Notes: a model not told the origin generated them from the letters alone. A stretch of DNA of 64,000 bases from Terriglobia bacterium (GCA_021323595.1 JAJPKR010000028.1:3762-67761), one strand, 5' to 3'; counted from the first letter of the stretch, positions 46,899 to 59,639 are shown. Numbers and translations: made by a program.

Positions 46899-49800
46899 TT
46901 AGTGAATTGGGCCGGTGACGGGCAGGTGATCGCGGCTATCCACGACTTCGCCGAAACGCCGGAAGTTCGCATACTGATCCGGCGTAATGTAATTGGCTTT
47001 CAGGTAAACGGCGCGGCTCAAATCGAGTTCGTTGCCGGTCACCTGATAGGTGGCCTTGTAGGAGCCGAAGGGATTGGAGATGTCGGCGCCGCCCGGCACC
47101 GCCGGCGCGGCGAAGGGCGCGGCCAGCGTGACTTTGACTTGCGTGGTCTCGAAGCTGTCGCCGGGAATGACCAGCGGATGAATCCGCGCGGGCAAGGAGG
47201 CATAGCGCGAAAGCAATCCCACCGAGCCGATTAAGTGATCGATCTCCCAGCTATCGCCTTCGCGGCGCACGAAACCGGGAATCGTGCCGTCCACACTGAT
47301 CACGAGCGGCTGATCATGCGCTTCCAGGCCCTGAATCTGGCCGTTGTCCGCGGTGGCGTTGGGATAGCTTTGCAGCAAGACCTGCTGATAAACCTGCGGC
47401 AGTTGCGACGCCGGAATCGAGGCCAAGCTTTGGCGAATTTTCTCCCCCAGCGGGCCGCGAAACTCGAGCACCAGATGCAGCTGGCCATCGCCGCTGGGCT
47501 GGACGCGAATGTCGGCCGTCGTCGCCATGCCGTCCAAGGGCGAGGGCTGATTGGGCACGGTCGTGAAGACCGCGCCTTCGTTCGGCGCCCCGGCCAGCAG
47601 CGCTTGCCCGCCGCGGAAGGCGGGGTTGATGTAGTCGCTGCGGGCGAAGTCGTTGTTGAGGTCGAACCAAGCTGCCTGCTCGCCCATCCCGACCTTCACC
47701 AGCGGATATTGGAAGGAGGCGAAGTTGGGAATCTCGAGCGCGGAGTGATCGGTGAAAGGCCGCGCCATTGCCAGCTGGGGGTGAATGCCGGCCGCCGCCA
47801 GCAAGCCGAGAAAGGTCGCCAAACGGCTGCCGGAACGGTCGGTGAAGTACTGGCGCGCCGGCGCCAGCGGCGCGCCCTCGCCGGGGGTGATATTGGCCGC
47901 CACCCAATCGAAGATCTTGCGCGCTTGCGCCACCGGATCGGCCTTGCCGGCCGCAGCGCTGAGTTGCCGGGCGGTTTGCCGCATCTCCGCCGTGTAACGC
48001 TCCACCGGAAACATGGCGTCGGCCAGGTAATCGGAGATGTCCTTCCAGGTCATCTTGCTGCTCACCCAGACCATCGGCACCAACTGCGGCTCCGGCGGCA
48101 TATTCGGCTCGACGCCCAAGATGCGCGTCTTTTGAATCAGCCACTCCCGCGCCGTCCAGCCCGCCATCGCGCCGGTCAGCTTCGTGACCTTGGCGGGATA
48201 GGGGAACCGCTCGGTTTCGATCATCAGCGGGTCGTCGTTGGGCGTGAGCACGATGTAATCGGAATAGTGATACGGCTCGCGCGAGGAATTGAAGACGAAA
48301 AACATGTTGTTGTCGATCGTCCCCGGCACGGCATTGGACGCGGGCTGATGCATCACATACTCGGTTTCGATGAAGTCGCCCGGCTCGAGCCCCGGCATCT
48401 GCACGCTATTGAGGTTCGCGTGAATCTCGGGCAGCAGGGCGGTGCCGTCGGGTTTGATCGTGCGCAGGGTGATGATGTCGCTGCCGGCGGGAATCTGCAC
48501 CGTGCCCTGCGTTTCGATGCCGGTCGAATTCAGCACGCGGATGATCTGGTGGATGTACGAATCGCGCGTGTGATCGGGATTGATGCGATCCACCATCTGG
48601 TCGAGCACCAAGATCGAGGCGGCGTTCGGGTATTCAGCGCCGTTCGGCGCGTCCTTCAAAACCTCGGCGGCGGAGTGGTACCACGGCGCCCAGAAGCGAT
48701 CGCCGGCGAGAAAGTCCGCCTCGTGGCGCAGTGCATTGCGCCCGAACTCCACTCTCCGCAGCACGGCCAGGCCGGCCTGTTGATCGGCGGCCAAGGCGAT
48801 GTCGGCGGCGGCGGCGGCGACCTGCGCGTCGTCGGGAAAATCGGCCAGCGCCTGCCGCGCCGCTGCTTGCGCGGCATCCAGCCGGCGCGCCTCGAGCAAC
48901 GCTTCCAGATAGTCGCGGCGCAACGGCCCGGAGGAGGGATCGAGCTCGACTTCGGCGGCCAGCAAGCTCGCGGCGTCCGCCGCGCGCCCATGATGGAGGA
49001 AAAAGCGCGCCAGCGCGGCGTGGCCGCGGGGATCGCGCAGCAACTCGGACGTGAGCTGGCGGGCCTGCTCTTGGTCGCCGAGGTCGGTGTAAAACTCCAG
49101 GCCGTCGGCGAGCCCGGCCCAATCCGAGGGGCTGGCGGCGAGGGCGTGCGCCAGGGCCTGCCGCGCCTCGGGCGTCCAATGGCGCCCGGCGGCGAGATGA
49201 AATTCGGCCCAATCGCAGGGCGCGTAGCCGCGTCCGGCGCAGCGCTGGAAATCGCGCGCGGCCGCCGTGAACTGCCCCTGCGAATCTTCGACTTCGCCCA
49301 AATGCTCGATGGCCGGCAATACGGCGGGGTCGATGCGCTCGGCAGCGTGGGCGGCGGCGCTGGTTTGGGCCGAGGCCCAAGTTTGGCTGGCGTCGTCGAG
49401 ATTGGAATAGACGTCGGTGAGCGCCAGCCAGGCGGGCACCGCCTCCGGCGCCAGCTTCGTGGCGCGCTCCAGTTCGACCCGGGCGGTCTCGCCGTCTTCA
49501 TCCTCGCCGCGCCAAACGCCGTCGGCCCAGAGCGCGACCAAATCGTCGGGATGGGCGCGCAGCCGCGCCGCGCTCCAGGCGCCGAGCGTCAGCGGCGGCG
49601 GCAGCAGGCGGGGCGCGCCCGCCAGCCGTTGCCCCGGCGGCAGCGCGGCCGCGCTGGCCAGCGGCGACGGCGGCGCGGCGCTGACCGGCCGCAGCATCAG
49701 GCTGAAACTGCGGGCGGCATAGCCGCCCAGTTTCACCACCAGGCGATTCCAGCCCGCATCCAGCTCGACCGCCGCCGTCGCGGTCGCGGGCACGTACGAC

Positions 49801-50768
49801 GAGCGCCGGTCGTTGCGCACTACGGCGCGGCCGTTGATGAAGATCGCGGCCGAGGCGGGCGAATAGATGCGCAGCGCGTAGGCTTCCCGCCGCGGCACGC
49901 GCACGTACGTGACCGCATAATCGATGCCGCGATTGCGCCAATCCTCGGGGAAATCCACCAACCCGCGCACCGCGAGGAAGGGCCGGCCGGTGATGGCGCG
50001 CCCGTCGTCGTTGTAGCTCGCCGCGGCGCTGCGCTCGATGGCGAAGGCGCGATCGAAGTCGAGATTGCGCCAGCGGCCCATCGGACCGTAAAGCGTCCAG
50101 CGCTCGGGACGGCCGGCGAGCGCAATCGCCTCCTCCAAGGTCAGCGGCACGCCCGGCGCGCGCACCAGCGCCAGCAAGGGCCGGCCGAGCATGTAGGCGG
50201 TGGTGGGGTCCGCCAGCGGGCGCGCCGTGACCTGCCGCAGTTCCGGCGCGGCATCGAGCAGTTCCCTGCCCTCGCCGTCGAGCACGCCGCTCAGCTCGCG
50301 CGCCGCCAGTTCCGCGGCCGGATCGTTCGGAATCAGCGCCAGCAGCTTCAACGCCGCGCGCATCTCCTCGCGCTGCCGCCCCTCCAGCTTGTCGAGCACG
50401 AACTGCGCGAACACCGCCTCGGCGTCATTGGGCGCCCGTACCGCGAGCTCCTGCAAGGTGCGGCGGGCGGCGCGGTGCGCCGCGGCGTCGCCGTAAAAGA
50501 CCTCGATCCAAGCGGCATCGGCCTGGCCCGCTGCGCCGCGCGCCTGCGCGCGCGCCACCGCCGCCCGCCATTCGGCCGGGGTCGGCCGCGGCAATCGGTC
50601 CAGCAGCGAGCCGGCGGGAGCGGCCGCGGCGGCGGCCAGCGCCAGCGCCAGCACGAGCGCGCCAACGGACCAAAATCCTCGCGCCGCGAGCCCGCCGCGC
50701 AAGCGGCGGCCAGCCGGCCGGGCCGCGCGGCCGCCGGCGCGGAAGCGGGATGGCCGGGGCGCTCTCAT
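46899..50768 (-). CDS. Giant (1289 aa) TPR / DUF3857-like / transglutaminase-fold protein, active site degenerate (TGL-B)
   Basis: Start placed at ATG 50766-50768 (MRAPRPSRF...), overlapping the upstream stop as ATGA. Hydrophobic leader GFWSVGALVLALALAAAAAA. Same module order as its upstream paralogue, but the transglutaminase core reads DRSGSRLATFLGLLAAAGI and SFQYPLVKV, where the paralogue has GDCKDKASLLIAMLARAGV and DFDHAIVYV. Confidence 0.8.
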   Translation of the reverse strand: MRAPRPSRFRAGGRAARPAGRRLRGGLAARGFWSVGALVLALALAAAAAAPAGSLLDRLPRPTPAEWRAAVARAQARGAAGQADAAWIEVFYGDAAAHRAARRTLQELAVRAPNDAEAVFAQFVLDKLEGRQREEMRAALKLLALIPNDPAAELAARELSGVLDGEGRELLDAAPELRQVTARPLADPTTAYMLGRPLLALVRAPGVPLTLEEAIALAGRPERWTLYGPMGRWRNLDFDRAFAIERSAAASYNDDGRAITGRPFLAVRGLVDFPEDWRNRGIDYAVTYVRVPRREAYALRIYSPASAAIFINGRAVVRNDRRSSYVPATATAAVELDAGWNRLVVKLGGYAARSFSLMLRPVSAAPPSPLASAAALPPGQRLAGAPRLLPPPLTLGAWSAARLRAHPDDLVALWADGVWRGEDEDGETARVELERATKLAPEAVPAWLALTDVYSNLDDASQTWASAQTSAAAHAAERIDPAVLPAIEHLGEVEDSQGQFTAAARDFQRCAGRGYAPCDWAEFHLAAGRHWTPEARQALAHALAASPSDWAGLADGLEFYTDLGDQEQARQLTSELLRDPRGHAALARFFLHHGRAADAASLLAAEVELDPSSGPLRRDYLEALLEARRLDAAQAAARQALADFPDDAQVAAAAADIALAADQQAGLAVLRRVEFGRNALRHEADFLAGDRFWAPWYHSAAEVLKDAPNGAEYPNAASILVLDQMVDRINPDHTRDSYIHQIIRVLNSTGIETQGTVQIPAGSDIITLRTIKPDGTALLPEIHANLNSVQMPGLEPGDFIETEYVMHQPASNAVPGTIDNNMFFVFNSSREPYHYSDYIVLTPNDDPLMIETERFPYPAKVTKLTGAMAGWTAREWLIQKTRILGVEPNMPPEPQLVPMVWVSSKMTWKDISDYLADAMFPVERYTAEMRQTARQLSAAAGKADPVAQARKIFDWVAANITPGEGAPLAPARQYFTDRSGSRLATFLGLLAAAGIHPQLAMARPFTDHSALEIPNFASFQYPLVKVGMGEQAAWFDLNNDFARSDYINPAFRGGQALLAGAPNEGAVFTTVPNQPSPLDGMATTADIRVQPSGDGQLHLVLEFRGPLGEKIRQSLASIPASQLPQVYQQVLLQSYPNATADNGQIQGLEAHDQPLVISVDGTIPGFVRREGDSWEIDHLIGSVGLLSRYASLPARIHPLVIPGDSFETTQVKVTLAAPFAAPAVPGGADISNPFGSYKATYQVTGNELDLSRAVYLKANYITPDQYANFRRFGEVVDSRDHLPVTGPIH

Positions 50769-53700
50769 GGCCGCGCCCTCAGCGGCAAATCGAGCACGCG
50801 GTCCAAGTTCGCCCAAAACGCCCGGAAGGCGGGGTACTCGCTCACCGGAATCAGCGATTGCGTCACCTCGATCTCGGTATCGATCGTCAGCGTGTTGCTG
50901 TCGTCGATGGTGGCCGTGCTGCTCGCGCGGGCAAACGGCGCCTGCGCTTGAAACGGCGCGGGCAAGCCGACCTTGTAGCCCGGCGGCAGCGTGATATGAA
51001 GGACGTTGCGGATGCTCTGCGGCGGCCCGATCAAGACCGGCACCTGCCGCGACGCCAGCGGCGCCATGCGCGGCAGCCAATCGCGCCCGGTCATTTGCCG
51101 GGGAATCAGCAGCAGGCCCTGCCCGTCGCCGGGATCGGGGCTGGCGAAATGCGGCACCTGGCCCTGAAAGAGGACTTGCACCGGCTCGTTCCAATGATCG
51201 TCATTGGGCGCCGAGGCGCTGAACACGCTGATGCCCGGAAGCTGCTCGCGCAGCATCGCCTGCAGCGCGCCGGCGCGCCGCTCGGGGATCTGCAGCCGCG
51301 CCCGCAACTCCGGCGCGCGCTCGCCTTGCGCTTGCCATTGCGCGCTGAAATCCAAATCGCCTTGCGCGTCCAATTGGCCGGTGACCACGCGCACGATGGA
51401 ATTTTGCGAAGCCGGCAGCTCCGGCGTCACCACCGGCGCGAGCGCCGCTCCGGCGTCATGCCGCGGATCGTAGGCCCGCAGCATGGGAATGCGAAAGACG
51501 AAGGCGCGCTGATCCTGGTCGGGCAGCTCGCTGACGCCGTTGTACTCGGTGGTGCCGTCGAGATAAAGATGCAGCGACGGCACATACACGATCGCATGGT
51601 CGAAATCGGCGACGGAAGGGATCTTGGGATCCACCAGGCCGCGATCGCGCGTGCGGACCAACACGAAATCCGCCGGAACGCCGGCGCGCGCCAGCATGGC
51701 GATGAGCAAGGAAGCTTTGTCCTTGCAATCGCCGAAGCGCCGGTGGAATACCTGCGCCACGGGATAGGGCCGGTAACCGTGAATGCCGAACTCCAGCGCG
51801 ACGTAATGGGTGTTGCGAATGACGTAATCGTAAATCGCTTCGACTTTCTGCCGTTCGGTGGTCAAGCCCTTGAGCAGTTGATCGGTCGTTTGCCGCAGCG
51901 CGTCGTCGAGCACGAAGGTGTCGCGCACCAGGCCGCGATACCAGTCGGCGAATTGGCCCCACGTGGCGAAGCTCGAGACCGCGACATACGGGACCTGCTC
52001 GATCGCCGGCGGCGACTCCGGCTCGGCGACGAAGGCCGGCTCGTCGCGCAGCGTCCAACGGTAGATCTTTTCGCCGCCGCGGGCTTCGACCGTGTGCTCG
52101 CCATGGAAGCGCACCGCCTCGCTGACTAGCGTCTTGTCCGCCGGTGCGATCACCACGAACTGGCGGAAAACCGCGGCGGCTTCGTCCTGAAACGCCACGA
52201 TATCGCCGTAGTAATCGCCGTAGAGCGATTCCAGCGTGGTGGGCATCACCCGGTACGCGATCTCGACGTAATCGCCCGGCTGGATCGCCGGCAAGACGAC
52301 GTATTTGTTGCGCACGTCGTAAAACGTCTCGTAGCCGACCGATTCGCTGACCGGCGCGTCCTCGGCCTCGGGCGCTTGGGTCCAGCTCCCCGCATGGCGC
52401 ACGCGCGCCGCCAGGTACCGCACTTGCTCGGTCGCGGGATCGTAGGTGACCGCATACGTGGCGAGCTGCTGCGCCCCGACTTGATTGTTCACCTTGTAGA
52501 TCTGCTGGACGTAGCGGCCGACGTTGCCGGAAGGAAAAATCTGCGTGACGGTCGAATCGACCAGCAAGACCAGCGGCCCGCCGCTCAGCGCCGCGGGACG
52601 CTTCTTGTAGGCGGCGATGGCCGCGTCGGCGGCCACCGCGTAGGGCTGCTCGAAGCTGGCTTCGCCGCCGCCCGCGCCGCGCTCGAGCTGCAGGCGATCG
52701 CGCAGGTCGGAATCTTGCGGGTTCAGCGCCAGCGCGGCTTGCCAATCTGCCAGTGCCGCGCGGCGATCGCCGAACCGGCGTTCCAGGTCGCCGGCGGTAG
52801 CGCGCAAATCGGGGTTTTGCGGATCGAGTTCGGTGGCGCGATGGATGGCGGCCAGCGCCTCCGTCCGTCGGCCCAGCCCGGCTTCAGCGCGTGCGAGCAC
52901 GGCTTCGAGCAGCGGCACGTCCGGGGTCAGCGCCTGAATGGCGGTCAGCGTGGCCACCGCGGCTTCGAACTTCCCGGCATTCCGCTGCAGGTTGGCCAGC
53001 GCCAAACTGCCGTTCAGGTCGCCGCGATCGTGCGCGACGAGGGCTTCCGCCCAGGGCAGCGCCGCCTCTTCCATCCCCATCTGTTCCAGCGTGTGCGCGA
53101 CGATCGCCGCGATCGCCGGAGAGCGGTCGTAGCCGGCCTGCTGCAGTTTCGCGGCATAGTCGAGCGCGACCGGCCGCACCCCGAATCCGGCATAGGTGGC
53201 GAACATCCCCAGCAGCGCCTGCGGGACGTCGGCGGCATTGGCGGCGCCCCGCAGGGCGGCCTCGAAGTCTTGCCGCGCGGGCCAAAATTCGCGGCGGCTC
53301 AGCTCGACGTAGCCGCGGTCGGCCAGCGCCTCGGGATCGGCTGGCGCAAGCAGCAGCGCCCGGCTCAACGTGCGGAAGCGGCGGCTTTCGTCGGCATCAT
53401 GCTCGGCGTAGTCCAGCAGCACCGCGGCGTTGCCGGCGTTGAGCGCGGCGGCGGACTCGAACGCGTTGGCGGCGTTGTGATCGCCTTGGTTATAGTTGCT
53501 CTTCTTCGCCAGCACCCAGGCATAATTCCAGGCGCCATCGGGAGTGCCGGCCGCCTGCTTGGCCTCGGCGGTCAGGTCCGCGACCGCAGGCGCCGGCGCC
53601 GCCGCTGCCGCCGCGGCGCGGCCCGCCAAAGGCGGCGTATCGGTGGCCTCGAGCGGCAGCGCCGCGCCCGCCGGCGTGGTCAGGCGCAGCGCGAAATGCC

Positions 53701-54547
53701 AATTCGCCGACTCCGTCGCGCCGGTCTTGACCAGGATCTCGTTCCAGCCCGCGCCTAGATTGGCGCCCACGGCGTGCATGTCGAAGGCGAACAGACGGTG
53801 GCTGCCCGCCTCCTCGAAGACCGGCTGGCCGTTCACCCAGATCCGCGTCGCCCCGCCGTCGCTGAAGCGCAGCGCCACCGGCTGCGCCGAGCGGCTCAGC
53901 ACCCAAGTGACGAGGTAGGCCGAGGCGCTGCGGGAAGGCGTGAAGTAAAGGCCGAGATTATAGCTGCCCTCGGCCGCCGGAAACGGGAGCACGCGCCAGT
54001 GAACCTTCGCCTGCTTGCCGGAATAGCTGGCGGCGAGATCGATGCCCTTTTCCGGTCCTTCCTCCCGCCTGATGGCCTGCGGCGTGGAGTTGTCGAAGGG
54101 GCCGAGAGCGCGCCAGCTTTCGACCATCCCGAGATTGCGCCACGTCGCTTTCGCGGCGGCGGCATCGCCCTGCCGCAACTCCTGCCGGGCGATTTCGGCC
54201 TCGACTTCGCCCTCGACCAGCGGTGACAGGCCGGGAACCGAGGCCATCGCCCGCAGCGCCGGCAAAATTGCCTGTTGGTTGGGAGTCTGATTGGCGGCCT
54301 CGGCGAAGCGATAGAGCGCTACCAGCCGCGCTACATCCGAGGTCGCGTTCTGGAACTGCCGCTGCTGCGCGGTGATGCGGGCGGCGGGCGCCAAATAGAG
54401 GGCCGGCGCCGCCGCCAGCGTTGCCGCCAGCACCGCGGTAAGTCCCGCGATGCAAACGCAGGAGCAAACCCGGGAGCCAGCCTTGGCGGGGAAAAGAAAG
54501 GACGAGGGCAATGGGGCAGGACGTCTCCGGCGAGGGCTGTTTCCCAT
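50765..54547 (-). CDS. Giant (about 1260 aa) TPR / DUF3857-like / transglutaminase-like cysteine-protease-fold protein, catalytic triad intact (TGL-A)
   Basis: Likely start MGNSPRRRRPAPL... at 54547 (the ORF is open to 54643), with signal-anchor CIAGLTAVLAATLAAAPALYL. Beta-rich module (WRALGPFDN...GAGWNEILVKTG), TPR units, DUF3857-like segment (PGDYVEIAYRV), and a transglutaminase core RRFGDCKDKASLLIAMLARAG ... FDHAIVYV ... LYLDGT. Confidence 0.8.
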   Translation of the reverse strand: MGNSPRRRRPAPLPSSFLFPAKAGSRVCSCVCIAGLTAVLAATLAAAPALYLAPAARITAQQRQFQNATSDVARLVALYRFAEAANQTPNQQAILPALRAMASVPGLSPLVEGEVEAEIARQELRQGDAAAAKATWRNLGMVESWRALGPFDNSTPQAIRREEGPEKGIDLAASYSGKQAKVHWRVLPFPAAEGSYNLGLYFTPSRSASAYLVTWVLSRSAQPVALRFSDGGATRIWVNGQPVFEEAGSHRLFAFDMHAVGANLGAGWNEILVKTGATESANWHFALRLTTPAGAALPLEATDTPPLAGRAAAAAAAPAPAVADLTAEAKQAAGTPDGAWNYAWVLAKKSNYNQGDHNAANAFESAAALNAGNAAVLLDYAEHDADESRRFRTLSRALLLAPADPEALADRGYVELSRREFWPARQDFEAALRGAANAADVPQALLGMFATYAGFGVRPVALDYAAKLQQAGYDRSPAIAAIVAHTLEQMGMEEAALPWAEALVAHDRGDLNGSLALANLQRNAGKFEAAVATLTAIQALTPDVPLLEAVLARAEAGLGRRTEALAAIHRATELDPQNPDLRATAGDLERRFGDRRAALADWQAALALNPQDSDLRDRLQLERGAGGGEASFEQPYAVAADAAIAAYKKRPAALSGGPLVLLVDSTVTQIFPSGNVGRYVQQIYKVNNQVGAQQLATYAVTYDPATEQVRYLAARVRHAGSWTQAPEAEDAPVSESVGYETFYDVRNKYVVLPAIQPGDYVEIAYRVMPTTLESLYGDYYGDIVAFQDEAAAVFRQFVVIAPADKTLVSEAVRFHGEHTVEARGGEKIYRWTLRDEPAFVAEPESPPAIEQVPYVAVSSFATWGQFADWYRGLVRDTFVLDDALRQTTDQLLKGLTTERQKVEAIYDYVIRNTHYVALEFGIHGYRPYPVAQVFHRRFGDCKDKASLLIAMLARAGVPADFVLVRTRDRGLVDPKIPSVADFDHAIVYVPSLHLYLDGTTEYNGVSELPDQDQRAFVFRIPMLRAYDPRHDAGAALAPVVTPELPASQNSIVRVVTGQLDAQGDLDFSAQWQAQGERAPELRARLQIPERRAGALQAMLREQLPGISVFSASAPNDDHWNEPVQVLFQGQVPHFASPDPGDGQGLLLIPRQMTGRDWLPRMAPLASRQVPVLIGPPQSIRNVLHITLPPGYKVGLPAPFQAQAPFARASSTATIDDSNTLTIDTEIEVTQSLIPVSEYPAFRAFWANLDRVLDLPLRARP

Positions 54548-54755: not shown

Positions 54756-57143
54756 CTAGCCGGCGGCGGCGCGGGCCCGTGCCGCCGGGACGTTGGAGGC
54801 GGCGACCGGTATGACGGCTGGCCGCGAAGCCGCGCCCCCGATACGGACGATGCGCAGTGGTACGGCATGGAGCACCACCCCGAGCAACCGCGTTGAGTTC
54901 TCGTGCAGCAGCGCTGCCGCTCGGCTCAAGGAAGCCGTGCGCTCGCCGGTGCGGGCAACGAGTACGGCGGCATCGGCTTGCGCCGCGAGCAGGCGCGCGC
55001 CCGGCGACGCAGGCAGCGGACCGCCGTCCAGCAAGATCCAGTCCCAGCGCTGGCGGGCCGCGGCCGCGAATCCCCGCATCGCCGGCCCCGCCAGCGCGGT
55101 CGCGGAAAATGCGCCGCGGCCGGAGCCGATAACGCTGGGCCCCTCCTCGCTGCGGGCTGCGGTCGCGAGCAGCATGTCCAGGGCGCAATCACCCGCCAGG
55201 TAATCGCCCAGGCCCGGCGCAGCCGGCGCGGCCGTGCTCGCGTCCGCATCTGCCGCGCCGGCGCGGCAGTCCACGAGCAGAACCCGTTCGCCGGCGTCAT
55301 GCAACCCTCGCGCCAGCAAAACCGAGACGGCGCCCGCGCCGGCGCCGGCGACCAGCACGATCCTCGTGTCCTCGGCGGCCATGAGCAGCAGCGACGCCGT
55401 TAAGGCATCCAGGGCGCTGCGCGCGCAGCGCGGCAGCGGCAACCCCACGGCGGCTTCGAGCGATCGCGGGCCCGCGACAGGATCGCGCTGCGCCTTTCGG
55501 CGCGTGCTCACGGGCAAGTGGATGCGGACGCGCACGAACGGCGGCTTGCTCGACGCCGCGGGCAGCCGTCCTCCCGGATCCGCTTCCGCCGCCCGCGCCC
55601 CGGCCCCGCGGCGCTCTGCCCTTGCGGCAAGGCCGCCGCGCACGGACCACGCAGAAGGACGCGAAGTCGGTTGAGAAACTTGGACCGGCAGCAACGATTC
55701 GTTCGGCTCCGGTTGCGCTCGGGGCGCCCCCGGCGCTTCTCGCTGCGCCTCATCCCCAAGCTCGGGAATCGCCGGCATCGAGCCCAGCAGGGGCAGCCGC
55801 AGCGCCGCCAGTGCCGCCGGGCCCGCGCGCGCCACGGCGCGCCATTCGTCAAGACCTATTAGCAGCGCGGCGCAAAGGATTCCCGCTAACAGCCCCAATC
55901 CGAGACTCACCGGCCAGCGCGGCCGAATCGGGCGCAGCGGCACGCGCGCAGGCGCGAGCACTTGCACCGGATTGCGGAGTAGCCCCTCGCTCACGGCCAT
56001 TTGCCGGCGCCTTTCCCAAAGCGATTCGTAGAGCGTCATCTGCGCCTGCGCGCGCGCCGCCAGCCAGCCGTCCTGAGCGGCGTTGCGCGCGGCGGCATCG
56101 AGCCAAACTTGTTGCCGCGCGAGCGCCGCCCGCAGTCGCGACAACGCCCATCGGTCGGCGCCGGCCGAAACGCCGTGGCCCGCCAGCGTCGCCCGCCGAT
56201 ACTGAGCCAGGCTGGCCTCCACGCTCGCCAAGGCCTGGCGCGCCTGGCGCAGGGGTAATGCGTTCGGCCCGTATTGCGCGGCGAGGCGGCTCGCTTGCGC
56301 CGCCAGCTCCGCCCGGCGCACGCGCAGTTCGGTCCACGGCCGCTGTTCTTCAGCGGTTAGCCGGGCTGCGGCGCCGCCTGCGGTCTGAGCCGCCCGTTGT
56401 TGCCAAAGATCGATCTCGGTGCGGTTCACCGCTTGCGCCAAGTCGTCGAGCCGCGCCCGCGCCGCGCTTGCCCCCGGCGCCGCGGCGTCGGCCGGGTGCG
56501 CCGCCCGGAAGCGCGACAGCGCCGCTTCCGCGGCCTGCCAGTTGCGGCGCGCGCCGGCGAGCTGCGTGTCGAGAAAGGCCGCCGCCGACGCCGCCGACTG
56601 CGTTTCCCGCGCGGCCATCTGCCCGCGCAATTCGGCGATGAGGCCGTCGGCAAGGGCGGCGGCCACGGCGGGGTGCTGATCTTCCACCGAGAGCGCGAGC
56701 AAATCCCCGCCCGGCCGCCGCTGCACTTGCACGTGCCGCAGCAAGGCCTCGCCCAGCGCATCCTCGCTCGCGGCGCCGGCGGCGGCGCTCACCGCGGGCG
56801 CGGCCGCCGCCGCGGCGCGATAGTCGGGATCGCGAGCCAAGTCCAGCCGGCGCGCCACCGGCTGCGCGATTTGCTGGCTGCGCAACAGGCGGGCGGCGAT
56901 CGCGGCGGGCTCGTCATCGCGGCCAGCCGCGGGCGCGGGGGCCAGCGCCGGCGCCCAATCGCCCACCCGCAGCAGCGCCTGCGCGCGATAGGTCGCCGGC
57001 AGCACCAAGGTCACAGCGGCGCTCGCCGCCAGCGCCAGCGCGATCGCCAGCGCGGCGCGCGCGCCGTGGCGGCGCAGGGCGGCGCCCAGGCGCGAGAAGC
57101 TTTCGCCAACAACGGGGGCGCGGGAGATCGGCGCTTGAAGCAT
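54756..57143 (-). CDS. Polysaccharide co-polymerase (Wzz/GumC-type, PCP-2-like) with a degenerate C-terminal BY-kinase-like domain
   Basis: Start at ATG 57141-57143 (MLQAPISRAP...), 8 nt after the wza stop. TM helix plus PATYRAQALLRV Wzz motif, a long Ala/Gln-rich coiled coil and a second TM (WPVSLGLGLLAGILCAALLIGL). The C-terminal P-loop-NTPase-like fold has VLLVDCRAG (Walker A-prime-like) and WDWILLDGGP (Walker B-like), but Walker A is replaced by IVLVAGAGAGAVSVLL. Confidence 0.8.
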   Translation of the reverse strand: MLQAPISRAPVVGESFSRLGAALRRHGARAALAIALALAASAAVTLVLPATYRAQALLRVGDWAPALAPAPAAGRDDEPAAIAARLLRSQQIAQPVARRLDLARDPDYRAAAAAAPAVSAAAGAASEDALGEALLRHVQVQRRPGGDLLALSVEDQHPAVAAALADGLIAELRGQMAARETQSAASAAAFLDTQLAGARRNWQAAEAALSRFRAAHPADAAAPGASAARARLDDLAQAVNRTEIDLWQQRAAQTAGGAAARLTAEEQRPWTELRVRRAELAAQASRLAAQYGPNALPLRQARQALASVEASLAQYRRATLAGHGVSAGADRWALSRLRAALARQQVWLDAAARNAAQDGWLAARAQAQMTLYESLWERRRQMAVSEGLLRNPVQVLAPARVPLRPIRPRWPVSLGLGLLAGILCAALLIGLDEWRAVARAGPAALAALRLPLLGSMPAIPELGDEAQREAPGAPRAQPEPNESLLPVQVSQPTSRPSAWSVRGGLAARAERRGAGARAAEADPGGRLPAASSKPPFVRVRIHLPVSTRRKAQRDPVAGPRSLEAAVGLPLPRCARSALDALTASLLLMAAEDTRIVLVAGAGAGAVSVLLARGLHDAGERVLLVDCRAGAADADASTAAPAAPGLGDYLAGDCALDMLLATAARSEEGPSVIGSGRGAFSATALAGPAMRGFAAAARQRWDWILLDGGPLPASPGARLLAAQADAAVLVARTGERTASLSRAAALLHENSTRLLGVVLHAVPLRIVRIGGAASRPAVIPVAASNVPAARARAAAG

Positions 57144-57151
57144 GGCGGCGG

Positions 57152-58087
57152 CTAGTGAAAGATGATCAATCCGGTGAAGATCGTCATGCTGGCGGCCAGC
57201 GCGACTTCGCCGCCGCGAATCAGCGTCAGCTTGCCGAGGTTGGCCGGCACATAGACGAAGTCGAAGGGCTCGAGGCGCGGATCGGGAGCGCGGCCGGCGC
57301 GAATGCGGCCCAGATTCACCAACTCCCGCCGCCGCGCGCCGGCCGCGCCGGCGTGCACGATCCACGTTCGCTTCTGCCCCGCCCCGCGCTGGATGCCGCC
57401 CGCCAGGCTCAGCGCCTCGAGCAGCGTCAAGCCGTTCGGCGGCAGGGTGAAGCGCCCCGGCTGGCGCACCTCGCCGCCGACATAGATCGCGGCGGCGGGC
57501 AAGACGCGCACGAGGTCGCCGGCGCGGAGCGTCAGCGCCGGATCGCTCTCGCCTCGCGCCAGCGCCGGCAGGCTCACCTGCTCGCGCGTCGGCGCCGCGC
57601 CGCCGTGGCCCGCGTGCGTGATCACCACCGCTTCCCCGGCATCGCCGGTGAAACCGCCGGCCTGCGCCAGGATCTCCGTTAATCCGCGATTTTGGCGCGT
57701 CCAATACACGCCCGGGTTCCGCACCGCCCCTAGCACCGTCACCGGCACGCCCGCGTATTGGCGGACCAGCAGTTGCACTTGCGGCGCCAGCAAATAGCCG
57801 GTGGCGCGCAACTGCGCGGCGATGCGGCGCTCCGCCTCGCTCGGCGTCGCTCCCGCCAGCGGCACGGCGCCGATGACCGGCATTTGCAGCGTGCCCTGGG
57901 CGTCGAGGCGGGCGATCGTCGTGAGTTCCGGTGTTTCAAACACCGTGACTTCGACTAAGTCGCCCGGGGCCAGGCGTGCCGGCGCCGCCGGTTCCGGAGT
58001 ATGCTCGATGGGCGGCGGCGGGCCCTGCTGGGCGGCCCAAAGCAGGCCCGACGACGCGAGCAGCATCCATACGGCGAAGTGGCGCAT
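57152..58087 (-). CDS. wza: Polysaccharide export outer-membrane protein (Wza / Poly_export + SLBB)
   Basis: Start at ATG 58085-58087 (MRHFAVWMLLASSGLLWA signal peptide). Poly_export motif LAPGDLVEVTVFETPELT and SLBB-like GEVRQPGRFTLP...LTLLEALSLAGG. Confidence 0.85.
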   Translation of the reverse strand: MRHFAVWMLLASSGLLWAAQQGPPPPIEHTPEPAAPARLAPGDLVEVTVFETPELTTIARLDAQGTLQMPVIGAVPLAGATPSEAERRIAAQLRATGYLLAPQVQLLVRQYAGVPVTVLGAVRNPGVYWTRQNRGLTEILAQAGGFTGDAGEAVVITHAGHGGAAPTREQVSLPALARGESDPALTLRAGDLVRVLPAAAIYVGGEVRQPGRFTLPPNGLTLLEALSLAGGIQRGAGQKRTWIVHAGAAGARRRELVNLGRIRAGRAPDPRLEPFDFVYVPANLGKLTLIRGGEVALAASMTIFTGLIIFH

Positions 58088-58154
58088 GACCGACGCGGGA
58101 TCAGCATCGGCGCAGGCGGACGCGCCGTCAATTCGCCCAAACAGGGGGTCTGCG

Positions 58155-59639
58155 ATGAAAACACCGAAGCGCGAACCACGCCGCAACACTCGGCCCGCCG
58201 CCCTCCCGGCCGGCGCCGTCGCCGGGCTGCTCGCCGCCGCCCTTGCCTGCGCCGCGCCCGCCATGGCGCCGGCCGCCCAACTCGCACCCGCGGTGCGGGC
58301 TTATGTCGCCGTGGAGGCGCCGGTGGTGGCGCTCGAACATGTGCGGGTCGTGGACGGCTCCGGCGCGCCGCCGCGCGCCGATCAAACCATCGTGTTGCGC
58401 GGCGGCCGCATCGCGGCCGTGGGCGCGGCCGGCGCGGTGGCGGTGCCGCCGGATGCCAAGGTGCTCGACCTGAAGGGCGCCACGGTGATCCCCGGCCTGG
58501 TGGGCATGCACGATCATATGTTCTATCCTGCCGGGCGGCGCGCGCCGCTCTATAACGAGCAGGCATACAGCTTCCCTCGCCTCTATCTCGCCTGCGGCGT
58601 CACCTCCCTGCGCACGACCGGCAGCATCGAGCCTTACACCGACCTGCAGCTCAAACAGGCGATCGATGCCGGGCTCGTGCCCGGCCCCAAGCTGCACGTC
58701 ACCGGGCCTTACCTCGAAGGCGCCGGCGCCTACACCTTGCAGATGCACGTGCTGCGCGGCCCCGAGGACGCCGCTCGAACCGTCGACTACTGGGCCGGCG
58801 AAGGGGTGACGTCCTTCAAGGCCTACATGCACATCACCCGCGCCGAGTTGGCGGCCGCGGTCGCGGCGGTCCATCGCCACGGTTTGACCATCACCGGCCA
58901 TCTTTGCTCGATCGGCTTTCGCGAGGCGGCGGCGCTCGGCATCGACGATCTCGAGCACGGCCTGATGGTGGACACCGAATTCGACCCGGATAAGCGCCCC
59001 GACTTCTGCCCCTCGCAAGCGGAAACCGCGCGCACCCTCGCGGCCATCGATGTCGCCGGACCGCAAGTGCAAGCGACCATTCGCGACCTGGTGGCTCATC
59101 ACGTGGCGGTCACCTCGACCCTGCCGGTCTTTGAGACGTTCGCGCCCAATCGCCCGCCCCTCGAGCAGCGAGTTCTGCAAGCGATGTCGCCCGAGGCGCG
59201 TTCGGACTACCTGACCCGCCGCGCCCTCATCGGCGAGCAAGCGGACTCGCCCTGGCCGGTGCTGCTGAAAAAAGAGGAGGAGTTCGAGCGCAGCTTCGTC
59301 GCCGCCGGAGGGCTGCTGCTGGCGGGCGAGGACCCGACCGGATACGGCGGCGATCTCGCCGGATTCGGCGACCAGCGCGAGGTGGAGTTGCTGGTCGAGG
59401 GCGGGTTCTCGCCGGTCGCGGCCATCCACATCGCCACCGCCAACGGAGCGCGCTTCTTGCACGACGATCGCATCGGCGCGATCGCGCCCGGCAAGGACGC
59501 CGATTTGGTGGTGATCGCCGGTGATCCCGCCCGGAACATCGCCGACATCGAAAACGTGAAGCTGGTGTTCAAAGACGGCGTCGGCTACGACGCCGCCCGG
59601 CTGCTCGCCGACGTGCACGGCACCGTGGGCATTTATTGA
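58155..59639 (+). CDS. Secreted metal-dependent amidohydrolase (imidazolonepropionase / Xaa-Pro dipeptidase-like)
   Basis: Internal ATG of ORF 57801..59639 with a signal peptide. VIPGLVGMHDHMF (H-x-H), ITGHLCS, AGEDPTGYG, GKDADLVVI. Confidence 0.85.
   Translation: MKTPKREPRRNTRPAALPAGAVAGLLAAALACAAPAMAPAAQLAPAVRAYVAVEAPVVALEHVRVVDGSGAPPRADQTIVLRGGRIAAVGAAGAVAVPPDAKVLDLKGATVIPGLVGMHDHMFYPAGRRAPLYNEQAYSFPRLYLACGVTSLRTTGSIEPYTDLQLKQAIDAGLVPGPKLHVTGPYLEGAGAYTLQMHVLRGPEDAARTVDYWAGEGVTSFKAYMHITRAELAAAVAAVHRHGLTITGHLCSIGFREAAALGIDDLEHGLMVDTEFDPDKRPDFCPSQAETARTLAAIDVAGPQVQATIRDLVAHHVAVTSTLPVFETFAPNRPPLEQRVLQAMSPEARSDYLTRRALIGEQADSPWPVLLKKEEEFERSFVAAGGLLLAGEDPTGYGGDLAGFGDQREVELLVEGGFSPVAAIHIATANGARFLHDDRIGAIAPGKDADLVVIAGDPARNIADIENVKLVFKDGVGYDAARLLADVHGTVGIY

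What the first reader, a model, noticed from the sequence alone, without database searches (positions are those of the whole stretch)
46899..54547. Translationally coupled giant paralogues: intact Cys-His-Asp transglutaminase core next to a Cys->Ser / His->Tyr copy
Both proteins share the same module order. This is a leader; a helical segment; a beta-rich module (WRALGPFDN...GAGWNEILVKTG in A, WTLYGPMGRW...DAGWNRLVVKLG in B); TPRs; a DUF3857-like segment; a transglutaminase core; and a C-terminal beta domain. In A the core is FGDCKDKASLLIAMLARAGV (Cys codon 51725-51727), DFDHAIVYV (His codon 51596-51598) and LYLDGT. In B the exactly aligned positions read DRSGSRLATFLGLLAAAGI (Ser codon 47832-47834), SFQYPLVKV (Tyr) and AWFDLN (Asp kept). 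The stop of A and the start of B overlap as ATGA (50765-50768). An enzyme / pseudo-enzyme heterodimer with fixed stoichiometry is the simplest reading. Alternatively, B may have switched to a Ser nucleophile.
Basis: seen in the sequence. Interest (0 to 1): 0.6.

Follow-up and report, generated by a model that had tools for sequence, protein, structure and literature searches.

The report
Transglutaminase-like enzyme with dead twin
Two overlapping genes in a soil acidobacterium encode a giant exported transglutaminase-like cysteine enzyme and a full-length copy that lost its catalytic centre long ago yet is still kept by selection; the same uncharacterised pair recurs in two bacterial phyla.

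Summary
Gene A (50765-54547, minus strand, 1260 aa) and gene B (46899-50768, minus strand, 1289 aa) are paralogues with the same module order, and they overlap in ATGA.

A keeps an invariant Cys941-His984-Asp997 centre. B does not carry a clean Cys-to-Ser change. Its catalytic Cys lies in a three-residue deletion (GDCKDK becomes G-[S/N]-R), a second active-site motif is deleted, and about 35 positions that are near-invariant in A-type proteins are lost.

B is not decaying:
- It is intact in 24 of 24 genomes of the same family.
- Its dN/dS (0.15-0.33) equals that of A.
- It models confidently (pLDDT 94) onto PDB 3KD4.

The A-then-B pair, mostly with an NTGA overlap, is present in 19 of 19 fetched relatives, in 34 of 34 Anaeromyxobacteraceae loci (including the isolate A. 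oryzae Red232), and in 6 of 8 other family members sampled. Flanking genes are not conserved, so the Wza/PCP-like neighbours here are incidental.

A physical complex is inferred, not shown. This scan has noted the same kind of pair before on other DNA. I found no functional literature in the open-access library searched.

The parts
50765..54547 (-). Gene A: exported giant transglutaminase-like cysteine enzyme, 1260 aa. The ATG at 54547 is the preferred start. A database entry starts 38 codons later at a GTG, which would lack the charged N-region of a signal peptide.
   Evidence: ORF and translation. Pfam DUF3857 1.6e-24, Transglut_core 3.3e-10, plus TPRs. AlphaFold2 pLDDT 92.8, pTM 0.87. Foldseek top hit 3kd4_A, E = 3.4e-24, TM 0.82.
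53642..54115 (-). A: N-terminal beta-sandwich module (residues about 145-302; motifs W-x-x-x-GPF and GAGWN).
   Evidence: Strands in the model. G149, P150 and G267 are shared-conserved between A-type and B-type proteins. Pfam gives only sub-threshold hits to the galactose-binding/GH2_N jelly roll (E = 0.018 and 0.047).
52586..53575 (-). A: TPR superhelix (residues about 325-654).
   Evidence: Pfam TPR families. Helical repeats in the model. TPR structures among the Foldseek hits.
51974..52573 (-). A: DUF3857 beta domain (residues about 659-858).
   Evidence: Pfam PF12969, 87.3 bits, residues 673-839.
51488..51961 (-). A: transglutaminase-like catalytic core (residues about 863-1020). Cys941 is at 51725-51727, His984 at 51596-51598 and Asp997 at 51557-51559.
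   Evidence: Pfam PF01841. Codons verified. GDCKD, H and DGT are invariant in 90 family members and in 20 of 20 close orthologues. This is the most conserved stretch of A, at 0.93 identity to the column mode.
50771..51400 (-). A: C-terminal DUF3858-like beta domain (residues about 1050-1259).
   Evidence: Model strands. The structural match to 3KD4 spans the whole 505-residue chain. The Pfam DUF3858 hit is only sub-threshold.
50765..50768 (-). ATGA stop/start overlap between A and B, with a GAGGG Shine-Dalgarno-like motif about 10 nt upstream, inside A.
   Evidence: ATGA or GTGA overlap in 17 of 20 Terriglobales pairs, with one further TTGA of uncertain start. ATGA or GTGA overlap in 18 of 18 intact Anaeromyxobacteraceae pairs.
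46899..50768 (-). Gene B: exported catalytically dead paralogue, 1289 aa.
   Evidence: Pfam DUF3857 2e-6 and DUF3858 8e-7, with no Transglut_core hit. AlphaFold2 pLDDT 94.0, pTM 0.91. Foldseek top hit 3kd4_A, E = 4.4e-20, TM 0.68. Intact orthologues in 24 of 24 genomes of the family. dN/dS 0.15-0.33.
50613..50768 (-). B: N-terminal signal peptide, followed by the conserved motif SLLDRLPR.
   Evidence: Read by eye from aligned orthologue N-termini; no signal-peptide predictor was run.
49602..50102 (-). B: N-terminal beta-sandwich module (residues about 223-389; motifs W-x-x-x-GP and AGWN).
   Evidence: BLASTP match to the same module of A. G228, P229 and G339 are invariant in 49-60 B-type sequences.
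48654..49586 (-). B: TPR superhelix (residues about 395-705), with a Cys510/Cys518 pair (49239-49241 and 49215-49217) that is invariant in the Terriglobales clade.
48057..48617 (-). B: DUF3857 beta domain (residues about 718-904), containing the B-specific conserved motif RTIKPDG.
47502..48047 (-). B: degenerate transglutaminase-like core (residues about 908-1089). The remnant G980-S981-R982 lies at 47823-47831. The DCK triplet and the upstream LEF...Y motif are deleted. Tyr1021 is at 47706-47708 and Asp1036 at 47661-47663.
   Evidence: Alignments. Joint conservation table. Codons verified.
46908..47486 (-). B: C-terminal DUF3858 beta domain (residues about 1095-1287).
   Evidence: Pfam PF12970, 29.6 bits. 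Model strands.

Best explanation
Genes A and B form a self-contained two-gene operon for a cell-envelope enzyme and its non-catalytic twin.

Shown:
- A is an exported transglutaminase-fold cysteine enzyme of about 1200 aa with a strictly conserved Cys-His-Asp centre.
- B is an ancient paralogue with the same six-module body. Its catalytic Cys and a neighbouring active-site motif were deleted, and its core has lost nearly all enzyme-specific conservation.
- B is nevertheless kept intact under the same selective pressure as A.
- B's start codon overlaps A's stop codon (ATGA), behind a Shine-Dalgarno-like motif inside A.

Inferred:
- A is most likely a peptidase or amidase rather than a cross-linker.
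- The overlap makes ribosomes produce the two proteins together, in a fixed ratio.
- After Sec export the two proteins act together, most likely as a complex.
- B would serve as scaffold, substrate-binding subunit or membrane/cell-surface tether for A. In Myxococcota, B carries a lipoprotein signal and A does not.
- The TPR superhelix and the N-terminal jelly-roll-like sandwich would provide substrate recognition.
- The conserved Gly-x-Arg and Asp in B's former active-site cleft suggest the cleft still binds something without cutting it.

The substrate is unknown.
For: - Paralogy and common architecture.
- A's triad is invariant in 20 close and 90 distant homologues. A's core is its conservation hot spot.
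- B has the three-residue deletion at the Cys in all 49 B-type sequences examined, and about 35 A-type near-invariant core positions are lost. Pfam finds no Transglut_core in B or in any of 64 B-type clusters.
- Purifying selection on B: intact in 24 of 24 family genomes at 48-75% identity. dN/dS is 0.15-0.33 and tracks A in each of 7 genome pairs.
- The fold is retained: pLDDT 94, and 3KD4 is the top structural hit for both proteins.
- Conserved adjacency and overlap: 19 of 19 Terriglobales loci; 34 of 34 Anaeromyxobacteraceae loci that have upstream DNA, and 18 of 18 intact pairs there with [AG]TGA; 6 of 8 further A-family members from Polyangia and other Acidobacteriota have the same kind of partner immediately downstream.
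- Single old origin of B: all deletion-bearing proteins fall on one side of a branch (SH-aLRT 97) and share the indel.
- Autonomy of the pair: none of the window's flanking genes is found next to the pair in 19 relatives.
- Export: N-terminal signal peptides in A and B, and lipobox-like leaders in myxobacterial B.
- Family members of another phylum were detected in outer-membrane vesicles of Tannerella forsythia (PMC10682907).
Against: - No direct evidence of a physical A-B complex.
- No enzymatic activity has been shown for any DUF3857 family member. The library search found no functional study.
- Equal dN/dS in A and B is also what two unrelated genes in the same genomes could show.
- One sampled A-type gene (P0148) has no adjacent partner, so the partner is not obligatory everywhere, or it may be encoded elsewhere.
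- Signal peptides and lipoboxes were read by eye only.
- The B clade has long branches. Its monophyly in the tree could be inflated by long-branch attraction, although the shared deletion argues independently for one origin.
Confidence: 0.6

Rival explanations
1. B is a co-regulated protein that works independently of A. Examples would be a non-catalytic binding protein, a structural envelope protein or a decoy/inhibitor. The overlap would then only ensure co-expression, and no stable A-B complex would form.
For: B has its own export signal, and in Myxococcota its own lipid anchor. B has conserved motifs of its own that A lacks: RTIKPDG, SLLDRLPR and the Cys510/Cys518 pair. One A-type gene has no adjacent partner.
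Against: The order A-then-B and the 4-nt overlap persist across two phyla and very different flanks. That is more than co-regulation needs. The two proteins share every module, as expected for subunits derived from a former homo-oligomer.
Confidence: 0.25
2. B is still an enzyme that uses a different nucleophile.
For: Ser979 and Ser981 flank the deletion in this genome, and Asp1036 is kept.
Against: Position 979 is S, N or A in close orthologues and R, Q, E, A or T in distant ones. Position 981 is S, N, G, D or E. The His position is Y, L, S, T, Q, A or H. No Ser, Cys or His is invariant anywhere in 49-60 B-type sequences. A second active-site motif (LEF..Y) is deleted.
Confidence: 0.03
3. The pair is the working module of the adjacent Wza/PCP-like polysaccharide-export genes, forming a new envelope system. 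This is the reading of the sister note e1-3559703.
For: A Wza-like gene (57152-58264; Poly_export plus SLBB domains) and a long ORF (54756-57161) lie directly upstream on the same strand, about 208 nt from A.
Against: tblastn finds none of the window's flanking genes next to the pair in 19 relatives, including one of the same genus. There the flanks are a DinB-like polymerase, a two-component system and sugar-phosphate enzymes. Flanks differ again in Myxococcota and in the other pairs. The putative PCP ORF has no Pfam match.
Confidence: 0.05
4. B is a decaying pseudogene.
For: The catalytic residues are lost and there is no Transglut_core hit.
Against: B has no stop codons or frameshifts in short-read assemblies or in the isolate genome. 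Its dN/dS is 0.15-0.33. Its model has pLDDT 94. The lineage is conserved across two phyla.
Confidence: 0.01

Closest known systems
Pfam DUF3857 - Transglut_core - DUF3858 proteins; solved example PDB 3KD4 (BDI_1141 of Parabacteroides distasonis, deposited as 'putative protease')
   Same: The C-terminal halves of A and B have the same three-domain body. 3KD4 is the top Foldseek hit for both (TM 0.82 and 0.68) and the only non-TPR sequence hit in the PDB.
   Different: A and B are more than twice as long, with an added N-terminal helical segment, a beta sandwich and a TPR superhelix. 3KD4 has no assigned function. In the phmmer alignment it reads GTPLEI where A reads GDCKDK, so the solved protein itself appears to lack the catalytic Cys.
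Transglutaminase-like cysteine protease superfamily (Makarova, Aravind & Koonin 1999); the characterised periplasmic member LapG (PDB 4FGQ); PNGase. All are cited in PMC4866520.
   Same: A has the papain-like/transglutaminase core with Cys-His-Asp. LapG is a precedent for a periplasmic member that cleaves a cell-surface protein (my own knowledge; the superfamily list is).
   Different: LapG is small, belongs to a different family (BTLCP) and has no dead paralogue partner. No substrate or activity is known for the DUF3857 family.
Enzyme/dead-paralogue heteromers: trypanosomatid AdoMetDC-prozyme, caspase-8/cFLIP. Transglutaminase-fold pseudoenzymes: erythrocyte protein 4.2, Rad4/XPC. (From my own knowledge.)
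   Same: A paralogue that lost its catalytic residues is kept by selection next to the active form.
   Different: Those cases are eukaryotic and their complexes are proven. Here the pair is bacterial, exported, translationally coupled and of unknown activity, and the complex is not shown.
TPR lipoprotein adaptors of periplasmic proteases (LbcA-CtpA of Pseudomonas aeruginosa, PDB 7RQF/8SXF; NlpI-Prc of E. coli)
   Same: In Myxococcota, B is a TPR-containing lipoprotein encoded with a soluble exported hydrolase-like partner. LbcA appears among the TPR structural hits of B.
   Different: LbcA and NlpI are not paralogues of their proteases. The structural similarity is generic to TPRs. In Terriglobales, B has no lipobox.

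Membership tests
DUF3857 / Transglut_core / DUF3858 family (3KD4-like) | DUF3857 (PF12969) match above Pfam's gathering score | tested here: met
   A scores 87.3 bits and B 28.4 bits, against a cut-off of 24.6.
DUF3857 / Transglut_core / DUF3858 family (3KD4-like) | Transglut_core (PF01841) match above the gathering score | tested here: inconclusive
   Met for A (40.6 bits against 23). Not met for B, which has no hit even at E <= 1. None of 64 B-type clusters carries PF01841.
DUF3857 / Transglut_core / DUF3858 family (3KD4-like) | DUF3858 (PF12970) match above the gathering score | tested here: inconclusive
   B scores 29.6 bits against 27, so it is met. A scores 12.1 bits, which is sub-threshold. 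The structural match nonetheless covers this domain in both proteins.
DUF3857 / Transglut_core / DUF3858 family (3KD4-like) | Three-domain fold as in PDB 3KD4 | tested here: met
   Foldseek: A has E = 3.4e-24 and TM (target) 0.82; B has E = 4.4e-20 and TM (target) 0.68.
Transglutaminase-like cysteine protease superfamily | Cys-His-Asp catalytic triad in the conserved motifs | tested here: inconclusive
   A meets it: C941, H984 and D997 are invariant in 90 homologues. B does not: the Cys is deleted, the His is replaced and only the Asp is kept.
Transglutaminase-like cysteine protease superfamily | Demonstrated peptidase, amidase or transamidase activity | not testable with these tools
   This needs biochemistry. 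No functional paper on DUF3857 proteins was found.
Enzyme / dead-paralogue partnership (prozyme type) | The partner is a paralogue that lost its catalytic residues but is under purifying selection | tested here: met
Enzyme / dead-paralogue partnership (prozyme type) | Physical complex between the two, and an effect of the dead subunit on activity | not testable with these tools
   No multimer prediction was available and no experiment was possible.
Translationally coupled gene pair | Stop/start overlap with a ribosome-binding motif inside the upstream gene, conserved in relatives | tested here: met
   ATGA at 50765-50768 with GAGGG upstream. NTGA overlap in 18 of 20 Terriglobales pairs and in 18 of 18 Anaeromyxobacteraceae pairs, mostly behind GGAGG-like motifs. 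Actual coupling of translation was not measured.

The most novel reading that the evidence does not exclude
A and B form an obligate heteromeric envelope machine found across at least Acidobacteriota and Myxococcota; earlier scan notes, which I did not check, add Bacteroidota. In this reading the dead twin is the substrate receptor, allosteric activator or membrane tether of a giant cysteine peptidase/transamidase that remodels cell-surface or matrix proteins. That would make it a bacterial, periplasmic counterpart of the eukaryotic 'prozyme' principle, and a new, widespread class of envelope enzyme complex.
Probability: 0.35. Interest if true: 0.7.

Novelty: new variant of a known kind. Interest (0 to 1): 0.55.

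Why it matters
The DUF3857/transglutaminase-like family is large: at least 761 homologues at E <= 1e-10 among the candidates scored. It is common in soil Acidobacteriota and Myxococcota, and it has had a crystal structure since 2009. Yet it has no known function in the literature I could search.

Three results give a concrete handle for experiments:
- These proteins typically come as an enzyme plus an anciently inactivated twin.
- The pair is kept in a fixed order with overlapping stop and start codons.
- The pair is independent of its gene neighbourhood.

The two proteins should therefore be studied together. The cultured isolate Anaeromyxobacter oryzae Red232 carries the pair. The result would also add a bacterial, exported example to the short list of enzyme/pseudoenzyme paralogue systems. 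Finally, it warns that the only solved structure (3KD4, 'putative protease') may itself be a non-catalytic member.

Tried and rejected
- A Ser nucleophile in B was rejected because the candidate residues are not conserved.
- B as a pseudogene was rejected.
- A functional link to the Wza/PCP-like genes upstream, or to the beta-propeller and outer-membrane-barrel genes downstream, was rejected. tblastn of all eight neighbours against 19 related loci gave nothing below E = 0.2. ORF clustering found only genus-restricted neighbours.
A narrower alignment, A3, worked.
- Identification of the N-terminal beta sandwich failed. Pfam gives only sub-threshold hits to galactose-binding jelly rolls. Whole-protein Foldseek lists are swamped by TPR hits.
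- Frameshifts in both genes in some myxobacterial loci (L035, L038, L046, L047, L050, L057, L066, L069). All are MAGs of one series (isolate names beginning MFD), most on contigs of hundreds of kilobases. I take the shifts to be assembly errors, because the isolate genome and the other assemblies are intact. This was not proven.
- Literature searches for DUF3857, DUF3858, 3KD4 and BDI_1141 gave only incidental mentions.


Full report
**1. What is in the sequence**

The minus strand carries two long ORFs. A runs from 54547 down to 50765 (1260 aa from the ATG). B runs from 50768 down to 46899 (1289 aa). The last sense codon and stop of A, and the start of B, read ccATGAgag, so the two genes share ATGA at 50765-50768.

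**2. Paralogy and architecture**

- BLASTP aligns A 660-989 with B 719-1026 (23% identity, E = 5e-14). It also aligns the N-terminal beta modules (31% over 103 aa, E = 4e-4).
- Pfam finds TPRs, DUF3857 (87 bits) and Transglut_core (40.6 bits) in A. In B it finds DUF3857 (28.4 bits), DUF3858 (29.6 bits) and a TPR, but no Transglut_core.
- AlphaFold2 models of residues 61-1260 of A and 90-1289 of B were built with alignments of 90 and 60 homologues. Both are confident: pLDDT 92.8 and 94.0, pTM 0.87 and 0.91.
- Both models show the same order of modules: helical segment, beta sandwich, about 300 residues of TPR helices, a beta domain, an alpha/beta core and a C-terminal beta domain.
- For both, the best structural match in the PDB is 3KD4, a 505-residue 'putative protease' of Parabacteroides distasonis. 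It is matched over its whole length: TM 0.82 for A and 0.68 for B.

**3. The active site**

In 20 close A orthologues the motifs GDCKDKASL, DF[DN]HAI and YLDGT are invariant. In 90 homologues down to 28% identity, G-D-C-K-D, H and D-G-T remain invariant. The core is the most conserved part of A.

In B, every alignment method places the Cys in a three-residue gap: A reads G-D-C-K-D-K and B reads G-[S/N]-R.

A joint table was made of 75 A-type and 49 B-type sequences.
- About 35 core positions are near-invariant in A-type proteins and are lost in B. They include T913, Y915, E919, F920, G921, P927, Y928, R936, D940, C941, K942, D943, H984, G998, T999, P1009 and D1012. Two of these stretches are deletions.
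- B keeps only G980, R982 (100% Arg, at the place of A's Lys944), R1003 and D1036 (86%).

Tyr1021 is present in 19 of 20 close copies but varies in myxobacterial copies. No Cys, His or Ser is invariant anywhere in 49-60 B-type sequences. B is therefore a pseudoenzyme, and the Ser-nucleophile alternative is rejected.

**4. B is maintained, not decaying**

- A whole-genome search found a full-length, stop-free B orthologue (48-75% identity) in 24 of 24 genomes of the window's family. In the sister family it found only weak matches.
- Nei-Gojobori dN/dS for seven genome pairs is 0.12-0.35 for A and 0.15-0.33 for B. The two values are almost identical within each pair.
- Source names identify the organism as an uncultured Terriglobales bacterium of the Acidobacteriota.

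**5. The pair is the conserved unit**

- I fetched 19 related loci. A lies immediately upstream of B in all 19.
- Of the 20 Terriglobales pairs (the window plus those 19), 17 overlap as ATGA or GTGA and one as TTGA, where the start is uncertain. Two have gaps of 9 and 20 nt. A GGAGG-like motif usually lies 8-12 nt upstream.
- None of the window's neighbours is found near the pair in any relative. This covers the Wza-like gene, the long ORF read elsewhere as a PCP, the 571-aa protein, the two small barrel proteins and the amidohydrolases.
- In the same-genus genome the flanks are a DinB-like polymerase, a histidine kinase with a response regulator, a SIS protein and a 6-phosphogluconolactonase-like gene.
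- Neighbour clustering found only genus-restricted companions.
- The adjacency to export genes in this window is therefore incidental.

**6. The pair is much older than this family**

- A second tier of B-type proteins (21-29% identity, none with Transglut_core) maps to Anaeromyxobacteraceae in the Myxococcota. It includes the complete genome of the isolate Anaeromyxobacter oryzae Red232.
- An A-type gene directly precedes the B-type gene in all 34 loci that have upstream sequence. All 18 intact pairs overlap as ATGA or GTGA.
- In these pairs B starts with a lipoprotein-like leader: a hydrophobic stretch followed by A/G-C. A has an ordinary signal peptide. In Terriglobales, B has an ordinary signal peptide followed by a conserved SLLDRLPR motif.
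- Within Acidobacteriota, 24 of 250 further sampled genomes have full-length B-type matches at E <= 1e-30. These are concentrated in a few families: 17 of 17 and 3 of 3 in two of them.
- I sampled eight other A-type genes from Polyangia, other Terriglobales and unnamed metagenome contigs. Six have a 1184-1264-aa DUF3857-only partner immediately downstream. Four of those overlap A by 4 nt, one shares a single base with it, and one follows a 49-nt gap. One sits at a contig end, and one has no partner. Three of the partners were compared by tblastn and are closer to B than to A.
- In a maximum-likelihood tree of the C-terminal halves (89 sequences), all deletion-bearing proteins lie on one side of a branch with SH-aLRT 97. 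Together with the shared indel, this indicates a single ancient inactivation. Long-branch effects cannot be excluded for the tree alone.

**7. How it most likely works**

Shown:
- There is an intact enzyme-type protein and a dead twin.
- Both carry export signals.
- Both are under equal constraint.
- They are encoded in a fixed order with a conserved stop/start overlap.
- The pair is independent of its gene neighbourhood.

Inferred:
- The overlap couples translation, so the two are made together.
- They act together in the envelope, probably as a complex derived from a former homo-oligomer.
- B provides binding, scaffolding or anchoring, consistent with its lipid anchor in Myxococcota.
- The conserved Gly-x-Arg and Asp in B's old cleft may still hold a ligand.
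- A is more likely a peptidase or amidase than a cross-linking transglutaminase. This is by analogy with characterised bacterial members of the superfamily such as LapG (listed in PMC4866520; the function is from my own knowledge).
- The N-terminal sandwich resembles galactose-binding jelly rolls only at sub-threshold level.
- Family members of another phylum were detected in outer-membrane vesicles of Tannerella forsythia (PMC10682907), which fits an envelope location.

**8. Comparison with what is known**

- The domain family and its structure are known but functionally blank. Full-text searches for DUF3857, DUF3858 and 3KD4 gave only incidental mentions.
- Dead transglutaminase-fold proteins (protein 4.2, Rad4/XPC) and enzyme/dead-paralogue heteromers (prozymes, cFLIP) are known in eukaryotes. 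This is from my own knowledge.
- I found no description of a bacterial, exported, translationally coupled pair of this kind in the library searched.
- In the phmmer alignment, 3KD4 reads GTPLEI where A reads GDCKDK. The one solved structure may therefore be a dead member.

**9. Earlier notes of this scan**

A word search returned 26 notes on the same kind of pair in other genomes. Four follow-up reports call it conserved and uncharacterised in myxobacteria, several phyla, an acidobacterial array and Bacteroidota. These are unchecked AI notes. My own results for Terriglobales, Anaeromyxobacteraceae and Polyangia agree with them. The sister note on this same stretch, which links the pair to the Wza/PCP genes, is contradicted by the lack of conserved flanks.

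**10. Verdict**

The enzyme/pseudoenzyme reading is well supported, while the heterodimer remains an inference. This window is one more example of a widespread but undescribed pairing within a known domain family. I rate it a new variant of a known kind, of moderate interest.

Noticed in passing
PDB 3KD4 compared with A residues 820-964 (window about 51656-52090): In the phmmer alignment the solved 'putative protease' BDI_1141 reads Y-G-T-P-L-E-I where A reads F-G-D-C-K-D-K. The only solved structure of the family therefore appears to lack the catalytic Cys and may itself be a dead member.
   Followed up: partly
window 54756-57161 (-) and 57152-58264 (-): The gene upstream of A, read elsewhere as a kinase-dead PCP, has no Pfam match at E <= 0.01. 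The next gene is a clear Wza-like exporter (Poly_export plus SLBB domains). Neither accompanies the A-B pair in any of 19 relatives.
   Followed up: partly
window 49215-49241 (-), B residues 510-518: A Cys-x7-Cys pair (RCAGRGYAPCDW) inside B's TPR region is invariant in the 20 Terriglobales copies. It may be a disulfide in an exported protein. A has no equivalent.
   Followed up: no
window about 50590-50615 (-), B residues about 53-60: The motif SLLDRLPR directly follows the predicted signal peptide of B and is conserved in most Terriglobales orthologues. Its role is unknown.
   Followed up: no
G000:C55:65886-66368 (L074) and G000:C49:198901-199380 (L075): The same genome has two further DUF3857 proteins, in open frames of 1117 and 684 aa. 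Both are A-like at about 28% identity, and tblastn finds no B-type gene within the fetched flanks.
   Followed up: partly
protein P0076 (1283 aa; sources NCBI, Logan and ENA): This homologue still scores as Transglut_core but reads GYGHEADR / DFQTPLV / YYLNDT at the three triad motifs. That would be a second, independent way of losing the triad, without the deletion. It sits on a very long branch.
   Followed up: no
L035, L038, L046, L047, L050, L057, L066, L069: Both genes are split over several reading frames in these myxobacterial loci, all from MAGs of one series (isolate names beginning MFD), most on contigs of hundreds of kilobases. The isolate genome and the other assemblies are intact. 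Assembly indel errors are the likely cause.
   Followed up: partly
L017, L020, L022, L025, L026, L028 (one genus of the family): A gene of about 1100-1190 aa is conserved upstream of A and divergently oriented, but only within one genus of the family. I did not identify it.
   Followed up: no
L032 4613-7882: The public gene call there is a 1089-aa protein with no Pfam match on the opposite strand. It covers what tblastn shows to be the A-type gene on the plus strand. This looks like a wrong-strand call in very GC-rich DNA.
   Followed up: partly
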